A stretch of DNA of 23,680 nt from assembly GCA_016840095.1 (NCBI GenBank), contig JAEOSZ010000063.1:1-23680 (forward strand), written 5' to 3'. A program made the position numbers and the translations under genes. Below the pieces are notes generated by a model, which worked only from the letters and a program-made list of their open reading frames with translations, was not told the DNA's origin and searched no databases. The stretch comes from Candidatus Heimdallarchaeota archaeon. Lineage in GTDB: Archaea > Asgardarchaeota > Heimdallarchaeia > Heimdallarchaeales > Heimdallarchaeaceae. Positions 15,152 through 15,303 of this stretch are shown in pieces (the first letter of the stretch is position 1; every line of letters starts with the position of its first letter).

Positions 15152-15168
15152 CGAAAAGCTTATTAATA
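15152..15168 (+). promoter_or_regulatory. Putative BRE/TATA promoter for the 35-aa ORF
   Basis: cgaaaagc-TTATTAATA about 28 nt upstream of ATG 15196, after a T-run following the RPA stop; same style as the radB and OSTC promoters. Confidence 0.55.
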
Positions 15169-15195
15169 AACAATAAGCAGCTTCAACCGATAAGT

Positions 15196-15303
15196 ATGGA
15201 TTTCGTTGTAATTAAAACCGTGATAATTATTTTTATTATATTAGCTGTCATTTTTGCACTGTTTTACCATGCATTTAGTGTAGGGAAAGAAGAAGAAACT
15301 TAG
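15196..15303 (+). CDS. Unannotated 35-aa single-TM miniprotein, OST4-like
   Basis: Manual translation MDFVVIKTVIIIFIILAVIFALFYHAFSVGKEEET*; dedicated promoter; TM ends in YHA at positions 24-26, as in yeast Ost4 (remembered: 36 aa, ...LIVIYHAV, YH at 25-26). Confidence 0.6.
   Translation: MDFVVIKTVIIIFIILAVIFALFYHAFSVGKEEET

What the first reader, a model, noticed from the sequence alone, without database searches (positions are those of the whole stretch)
15152..15303. Hidden 35-aa OST4-like miniprotein gene between RPA and the surface glycoprotein
Seen: the 184-nt gap left empty by the ORF track holds a BRE/TATA box, then ATG 15196-TAG 15303 encoding MDFVVIKTVIIIFIILAVIFALFYHAFSVGKEEET, a single TM ending in YHA with a short polar tail. 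Known (from memory): eukaryotic OST4 is a 36-37 aa single-pass OST subunit whose most conserved feature is YH at the TM end (yeast ...ITFGIVMMTLIVIYHAVDS; human ...LLVVLYHYVAV). Length, N-terminal Asp, F-x-I and YHA line up with a 1-2 residue offset, but the conserved mid-helix Gly is Ile here. Inference: a possible archaeal OST4 ortholog. I am not aware of OST4 being reported in Asgard archaea, and its size would let it escape gene callers.
Basis: partly seen in the sequence, partly recalled or inferred. Interest (0 to 1): 0.88.

Follow-up and report, generated by a model that had tools for sequence, protein, structure and literature searches.

The report
Asgard Ost4-like glycosylation helper miniprotein
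A real, strongly conserved 35-residue membrane protein of a Heimdall-group Asgard archaeon is predicted to sit on the cell's N-glycosylation enzyme exactly where the small eukaryotic subunit Ost4 sits, but Ost4 relatives in Asgard archaea were already reported in 2023.

Summary
The ORF (15196-15303, 35 aa, one TM helix) and its BRE/TATA box are real. The gene occurs in 30 of 31 genomes of the family under purifying selection (dN/dS 0.13). Iterated profiles find it, almost always as one copy, in 201 of 400 Asgard genomes.

This copy has no Pfam Ost4 match. Relatives do, below the cut-off: the best reaches E=1e-4 and has yeast Ost4 as its top PDB hit. A Heimdall-only profile ranks yeast Ost4 third among 2,699 TM segments.

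Folded with this genome's AglB/STT3, the peptide docks between TM1 and TM13, the Ost4 groove. Score 0.78 against 0.00 for the best control (58/80 solved and 2/110 mismatched pairs pass). The pass may come from memory of solved OST structures. An OSTC/DC2-like gene lies 7 kb away.

Best reading: an Asgard Ost4 counterpart that braces AglB (about 0.8). Two first-reader points fail: YH is not invariant, and Asgard Ost4 homologues were already claimed by Eme et al. 2023. This scan also noted the family in other Asgard genomes. Expression and binding are untested.

The parts
15152..15159 (+). BRE-like element CGAAAAG(C)
   Evidence: Sequence; near-identical in 28 family copies
15160..15167 (+). TATA box TTATTAAT, 36 nt upstream of the ATG; implies an own promoter and a 5' leader of about 10 nt (inferred)
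   Evidence: TTATTAA at -35 to -37 in all 28 copies, including the two inverted Heimdallarchaeum copies
15196..15303 (+). 35-aa single-TM Ost4-like miniprotein gene (TM about residues 4-25, YH at 24-25, acidic tail)
8019..8444 (+). OSTC/DC2-like (OST3/OST6 family) 141-aa gene; probable second partner of AglB in subcomplex II
   Evidence: PF04756 25.4 bits, E=1.3e-5, below the cut-off of 27; top PDB hit human OSTC, E=0.006; 60% identical to the gene head-to-head with the miniprotein in G026, which passes the cut-off
13002..15125 (+). Replication protein A (upstream neighbour, context only)
   Evidence: OB-fold and Rep_fac-A_C Pfam hits
15310..18192 (-). 960-aa secreted, C-terminally anchored protein with 24 N-X-S/T sequons; convergent neighbour and a plausible OST substrate (inferred)
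   Evidence: tail-to-tail with the miniprotein also in G026 and G028, where RPA is not adjacent

Best explanation
The ORF encodes the Asgard counterpart of Ost4, a one-helix accessory subunit of the oligosaccharyltransferase. It is transcribed from its own BRE/TATA promoter (conserved motif shown; use inferred). It inserts with its N-terminus outside and its C-terminus in the cytoplasm (inferred from the model). It packs in the groove between TM1 and TM13 of AglB/STT3 (G000:C3:40122-42377) through residues 10, 14, 17, 18, 21 and 22 (predicted). By analogy with yeast it braces the catalytic subunit and helps hold the OSTC/DC2-like subunit, giving an archaeal Stt3-Ost4-Ost3/DC2 subcomplex II (inferred). 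It has no catalytic role. Its acidic tail may face the basic cytoplasmic TM12-TM13 loop of AglB (inferred, weak).
For: Gene reality. Single copy across Asgard: 201/400 genomes. Family chain: Heimdall and Njord-like subfamily profiles match at hhalign 97%. Member P0030, found by the family profile among 1.84 billion proteins, matches Pfam Ost4 over positions 1-31 of 34 at E=1.1e-4 and has yeast Ost4 as top PDB hit, E=0.007, gap-free. Ost4 is the commonest Pfam match among 50 members (5/50). A Heimdall-only profile ranks yeast Ost4 above all but 2 of 2698 TM decoys. At the position of yeast Gly15 the family has G in 16 and G/A/S in 31 of 50. L22, the best-conserved column, aligns with yeast V23, within the 18-24 stretch where charged substitutions break the Stt3-Ost4-Ost3 subcomplex (PMC7226087). 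Complex model: score 0.78, best control 0.00; 58/80 solved and 2/110 mismatched pairs reach the mark; runs agree in at least 93% of contacts; partner pLDDT at least 81. The interface is AglB 29-56, 157-169, 438-449 and 474-493, that is TM1, the start of TM3, the helix after TM12, and TM13 by hydropathy, as described for Ost4. The genome also has ribophorin I and OSTC-like genes.
Against: No member reaches Pfam's Ost4 cut-off of 25 bits (best 22.4). The window's copy and its close family show nothing (yeast Ost4 only in the top 14% of decoys with the close-family profile). HMMER profiles of the whole family do not retrieve Ost4 from PDB or rank it above TM decoys. No protein recognisable as a eukaryotic Ost4 was among the 38 hits in the 1.84-billion library. 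Only Saccharomyces Ost4 was available as the eukaryotic side. STT3-Ost4 structures are solved, so the docking may be recalled likeness, and the controls are not stated to be TM helices. The gene is rarely next to OST genes; its usual neighbours are RPA or Lhr helicase. YH varies and the tail is acidic in 45/50 members.
Confidence: 0.8

Rival explanations
1. The peptide binds the same AglB groove and works like Ost4, but it is not related by descent. A short aliphatic helix ending in an aromatic-His pair arose independently.
For: Sequence likeness to Ost4 is borderline at database scale; the close-family profile gives no signal; the helix is of low complexity.
Against: Gap-free agreement from residue 1 to 30 between P0030 and yeast Ost4, including the M-I-S start, Gly15 and YH. 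G/A/S enrichment at the Gly15 column. Asgard archaea share other OST subunits with eukaryotes.
Confidence: 0.08
2. It is a small membrane subunit of another complex, such as the Sec61/TRAP translocon, a membrane anchor for DNA-processing proteins, or a transporter regulator. The AglB docking is model memory filling an empty groove with any helix.
For: Conserved neighbours are RPA and Lhr helicase in many families, not glycosylation genes. A few members give weak Sec61beta hits (E 0.02-0.09). An earlier scan note judged the Thor copy's Ost4 likeness borderline (e1-5584769).
Against: The gene has its own promoter and flips orientation or changes neighbours freely (convergent to RPA in Heimdallarchaeum, head-to-head with the DC2-like gene in G026), which argues against a functional tie to RPA or Lhr. 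Ost4 is the commonest Pfam hit. Two unrelated 35-mers scored 0.00 on AglB.
Confidence: 0.11
3. The ORF is an accident of AT-rich intergenic DNA or of constraint from another element.
For: AT-rich DNA (29% GC) favours Ile/Phe-rich frames; 8% of shuffles give an ATG ORF this long. Expression could not be checked.
Against: dN/dS 0.13, fixed length, third-position variation, conserved promoter spacing; no RNA family; homologues across the phylum.
Confidence: 0.01

Closest known systems
Eukaryotic Ost4/OST4 (Pfam PF10215; yeast Ost4p in PDB 1RKL, 6C26, 6EZN; human OST4 in 2LAT, 6S7O)
   Same: Size of 35-37 aa, single TM helix, Tyr-His at the helix end in register (P0001 residue i = yeast i+1; 6 identities in 35), predicted seat between TM1 and TM13 of STT3/AglB, same genome encodes STT3, ribophorin I and an OSTC-like protein.
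   Different: This copy is below every Pfam/phmmer threshold, has Ile at the Gly15 position, is one residue shorter at the N-terminus and has an acidic E-rich tail. Across Asgard the His is replaced in 30% of members. Binding and function have not been tested.
Asgard Ost4 homologues of Eme et al. 2023 (Nature 618:992, PMC10307638)
   Same: Same claim: Ost4 homologues in most Asgard classes; the phylum-wide distribution found here fits it.
   Different: The paper gives no sequences or model in the text held. Its accession table is cut in the stored copy, so I could not confirm that it lists this same family or a Heimdallarchaeaceae member.
Asgard Sec61/OST/TRAP translocon of Ca. Prometheoarchaeum syntrophicum (Carilo et al. 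2024, PMC11417166)
   Same: Multi-subunit, eukaryote-type OST in an Asgard archaeon (STT3, OST1, OST3/6).
   Different: No Ost4 was reported there (0 mentions). My profile also found almost nothing in the largest Asgard family sampled (f14, 3/135; probably Lokiarchaeia, my inference).

Membership tests
Ost4 (PF10215) | 30-40 aa protein with one TM helix | tested here: met
   35 aa, maximum Kyte-Doolittle 19-mer of 3.18; 35-36 aa in all 28 close copies
Ost4 (PF10215) | Score above the Pfam gathering cut-off (25 bits) | tested here: not met
   No hit for P0001 or 23 close members; best family member 22.4 bits, E=1.1e-4
Ost4 (PF10215) | Detectable homology to eukaryotic Ost4 at family level | tested here: inconclusive
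   hhalign 46%, P=2e-4; yeast Ost4 in the top 0.1-0.8% of TM decoys with broad profiles; P0030 to yeast Ost4 E=0.007 in PDB; HMMER family profiles negative
Ost4 (PF10215) | Tyr-His at the C-terminal end of the helix | tested here: met
   Y24-H25 here; Y 42/50 and H 35/50 across Asgard; only 15 of 2698 decoy helices have YH there
Ost4 (PF10215) | Mid-helix Gly (yeast G15) | tested here: inconclusive
   Ile14 in this copy; Gly is the commonest residue of the column in the wider family (16/50; G/A/S 31/50)
Ost4 (PF10215) | Sits between TM1 and TM13 of STT3 | tested here: met
   In prediction only: score 0.78 vs best control 0.00, interface AglB 29-56 and 474-493; may reflect memory of solved OST structures
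Ost4 (PF10215) | N-terminus luminal, C-terminus cytosolic | tested here: inconclusive
   Contacts run antiparallel to TM1 and TM13 (peptide 10-14 with AglB 44/485; 21-22 with 37/474-478), which implies this topology; Ost4's topology is from my own knowledge (Kim et al. 2003); not measured
Ost4 (PF10215) | Stabilises Stt3 and recruits Ost3/Ost6 or DC2; needed for full OST activity | not testable with these tools
   Needs pull-down, reconstitution or complementation; the OSTC-like gene is present but the three-way complex was not modelled (single job used)
Sec61beta/SecG (PF03911) | Profile match and N-terminal cytosolic region before a C-terminal TM anchor | tested here: not met
   Only 2 of 50 members hit, best E=0.05; the TM starts at residue about 4, with the polar part C-terminal

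The most novel reading that the evidence does not exclude
This acidic-tailed family may be partly or wholly missing from the published Asgard Ost4 list. It would then be the first sequence-defined, phylum-wide archaeal Ost4 clade, with a predicted Stt3-Ost4-DC2 subcomplex II in Heimdallarchaeia. It appears to be missing or unrecognisable in one large Asgard lineage, and its tail charge may track the charge of AglB's TM12-TM13 loop.
Probability: 0.25. Interest if true: 0.5.

Novelty: new member of a known kind. Interest (0 to 1): 0.3.

Why it matters
If it is Ost4, the core Stt3-Ost4-Ost3/DC2 subcomplex of the eukaryotic OST was already assembled in the archaeal relatives of eukaryotes. That idea is published, but only as a presence/absence claim. 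What this work adds is a concrete, selection-validated family that standard annotation leaves unnamed, a predicted binding site, and a residue (L22, equivalent to yeast V23) that makes the claim testable by pull-down or by complementation of yeast ost4 deletion. The cultured Ca. Heimdallarchaeum aukensis carries a copy two genes from aglB.

Tried and rejected
Pfam on P0001 and close orthologues gave only generic TM hits (FeoB_associated, TRIQK and others), rejected as composition noise.
PF10215 searched over 83 class genomes gave no match over the cut-off and did not ring on this gene; the hits I inspected were spurious frames.
HMMER family profiles against PDB gave NaK channel, AcrZ, CydH, PsbT and Ycf12 helices at E from 0.05 to 9, rejected.
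ESM Atlas gave only unnamed clusters at 0.81 or less, uninformative.
Alignment A6 ranks yeast Ost4 first of 1200 decoys, but I enriched it for Ost4-like rows, so I do not count it. L131 and P0030 were also picked for single-sequence searches after I saw their likeness.
A broad eukaryotic Ost4 alignment could not be obtained: the 30-aa query was too short and the retry returned only Saccharomyces.
Ost5 (PF05251) was not found in this 89%-complete genome.
The sigma-70 promoter/terminator scan does not cover archaeal promoters.
One hhalign script timed out and two crashed.

Full report
Observation. A BRE-like CGAAAAG(C) lies at 15152-15159 and TTATTAAT at 15160-15167. The genome belongs to Heimdallarchaeaceae: its family-mate G027 has the contig length of Ca. 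Heimdallarchaeum aukensis, and cluster members are labelled Heimdallarchaeaceae.

It is a real gene. Downstream of RPA the ORF is intact in 26 loci of genera g1 and g2, this genome included. It is present but inverted, facing RPA, in the two complete Heimdallarchaeum genomes. A profile finds it at E of 1e-16 or better in 30 of the 31 genomes of the family; the exception, G014, also lacks the RPA and OSTC-like genes of this region. All 28 close copies are 35-36 codons long and carry TTATTAA at -35 to -37. Pairwise dN/dS is 0.13 overall and 0.02 for codons 20-34. Only 0.1% of shuffles of the gap give such a TM-bearing ORF. No RNA family overlaps it. Expression could not be checked.

The family is phylum-wide. 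Profile iteration (A1 to A4) reached 201 of 400 Asgard genomes at E of 0.003 or better, almost always one copy in a short stand-alone frame. I inspected about 75 of these by eye; the rest are not individually verified. It was found in nearly all Heimdall-order genomes and in 85 of 89 genomes of the pooled last three families of the tally (mostly f11, Thor-like by my inference), but in only 3 of 135 genomes of f14 (probably Lokiarchaeia; inference). Orthology of distant members is backed by shared neighbours, Lhr helicase and/or RPA, in f6, f11, f17, f18, f20 and f23. The Njord-like members have other neighbours. A Heimdall-only profile still scores them 25-38 against a maximum of 22 for 2698 TM decoys, and the two subfamily profiles match at 97%. 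A search of 1.84 billion representatives returned 38 proteins. The 35 I read all look like family members and none looks like a eukaryotic Ost4. Those with names are 'hypothetical', and the H. aukensis copy is called with an 83-aa start.

Sequence link to Ost4: modest. P0001 and its close relatives do not match PF10215. In the wider family Ost4 is the most frequent Pfam match (5 of 50, best E=0.0055). P0030 matches it over positions 1-31 at 22.4 bits, E=1.1e-4, under the cut-off of 25. P0030 and L131 have yeast Ost4 as their top PDB hits (E=0.007 and 0.14), though I chose them for their likeness. The unbiased test is the decoy ranking. With hhalign, yeast Ost4 is beaten by 2 of 2698 TM decoys using a Heimdall-only profile, 14 of 2698 using all non-Njord rows, 3 of 1200 using A4, and 167 of 1200 using the close family alone. 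HMMER profiles of A1-A4 show no such enrichment and do not retrieve Ost4 from PDB. In the hhalign register (P0001 residue i = yeast i+1), Y and H are kept in 42 and 35 of 50 members. The Gly15 column is G in 16 and G/A/S in 31, and the best-kept column, L22 (43 of 50), falls on yeast V23. Yeast residues 18-24 are those whose charged substitutions destabilise Stt3-Ost4-Ost3 (PMC7226087). Homology is therefore likely but not proven by sequence.

Structure prediction. The genome has one AglB/STT3 (752 aa, G000:C3:40122-42377). Folding it with the peptide gave scores of 0.78, 0.78 and 0.74, against 0.00 for all three controls. The mark was reached by 58 of 80 solved complexes and 2 of 110 mismatched pairs; those counts hold only roughly for my own alignments. 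Runs agree in at least 93% of contacts, and partner pLDDT is at least 81. The confident interface on AglB is 29-56, 157-169, 438-449 and 474-493. By hydropathy these are TM1, the start of TM3, the helix after TM12, and TM13 (TM numbering is my assignment). Ost4 is described as nestled between TMH1 and TMH13 of Stt3. The tightest peptide contacts are residues 14, 17, 18, 21 and 22, matching yeast 15, 18, 19, 22 and 23. The helix runs antiparallel to TM1 and TM13, which puts the N-terminus outside. Caveats: STT3-Ost4 complexes are solved, so this may be recalled likeness, and the two peptide controls are not stated to be membrane helices. The model supports binding; it does not show it.

Context. 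The window also encodes an OSTC/DC2-like protein at 8019-8444, and the genome has ribophorin I. In G026 the miniprotein gene is head-to-head with the OSTC-like gene. In H. aukensis and its sister it lies two genes from aglB. It lies about 7 kb from the OSTC-like gene in most of g1 and about 9 kb in four f5 genomes. This is loose linkage within a housekeeping region, not an operon, and is weak evidence. The peptide's tail is acidic in 45 of 50 members. The AglB TM12-TM13 loop is basic, mostly +5 and ranging +2 to +9, where tails are acidic, and 0 to +3 in the Njord-like lineage whose tails are basic. That is a single evolutionary contrast and only a lead.

Mechanism. Shown: a conserved coding gene with its own promoter motif. 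Predicted: it occupies the TM1/TM13 groove of AglB. Inferred from yeast: it stabilises the catalytic subunit and helps recruit the OSTC/Ost3-type subunit, so that surface proteins such as the 24-sequon neighbour are glycosylated efficiently. I put this at about 0.8. The rivals are an analogue in the same groove (0.08), a subunit of another complex (0.11) and an artefact (0.01).

Known or new. Their accession list is cut in the stored supplement, so identity with this family is likely but unconfirmed. Carilo et al. 2024 list only STT3, OST1 and OST3/6 for MK-D1. This scan has flagged Ost4-like miniproteins in other Asgard genomes several times (consulted after I had formed my reading). Three follow-ups report docking in the Ost4 site, a fourth does so for a Heimdall-group copy, and one judged the likeness borderline. 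Verdict: a new member of a known kind. It works like Ost4 by prediction and is probably a member by descent, though it fails the formal Pfam threshold. Interest 0.3.

Noticed in passing
window 8019-8444 (+): 141-aa OSTC/DC2-like gene of the OST3/OST6 family; homologues in 77 of 83 class genomes, with two to four matches in several f3, f4, f5 and f6 genomes.
   Followed up: partly
window 10542-11642 (+): 366-aa type I membrane protein with signal peptide, 12 sequons and a faint OST48_N match (E=0.03); no PDB sequence hit. Could be a Wbp1-like or GIFT-domain protein; earlier scan notes place similar genes in a different clade.
   Followed up: partly
window 10316-10391 (-): tRNA-Thr(GGT).
   Followed up: no
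window 7170-7928 (+): 252-aa protein with an E3 UFM1-protein ligase 1 (UFL1) domain over the Pfam cut-off and a PCI-like region, next to the OSTC-like gene; in Heimdallarchaeum it lies next to the miniprotein.
   Followed up: no
window 3753-7013 (-): Cluster of a Ras-family small GTPase, a FIST-domain protein and a KaiC-like ATPase.
   Followed up: no
L060:1633 region = G027:C1:1950993-1951097: The H. aukensis copy is annotated as an 83-aa hypothetical protein (UJG39928.1); promoter position and alignment indicate a 35-aa product with FH instead of YH.
   Followed up: partly
family f14 (135 genomes) and f27 (14 genomes): The family profile finds almost nothing (3/135 and 0/14): loss or strong divergence in what are probably Lokiarchaeia.
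   Followed up: no
L180-L184 vs L144-L171, L186-L190 (AglB TM12-TM13 loop): Loop net charge is lower (0 to +3) in the lineage whose miniprotein tail is basic than where the tail is acidic (mostly +5).
   Followed up: partly
window 21035-22411 (-), 19602-21024 (-): Type II/IV secretion ATPase followed by two multi-TM proteins, possibly a pilus assembly unit.
   Followed up: no
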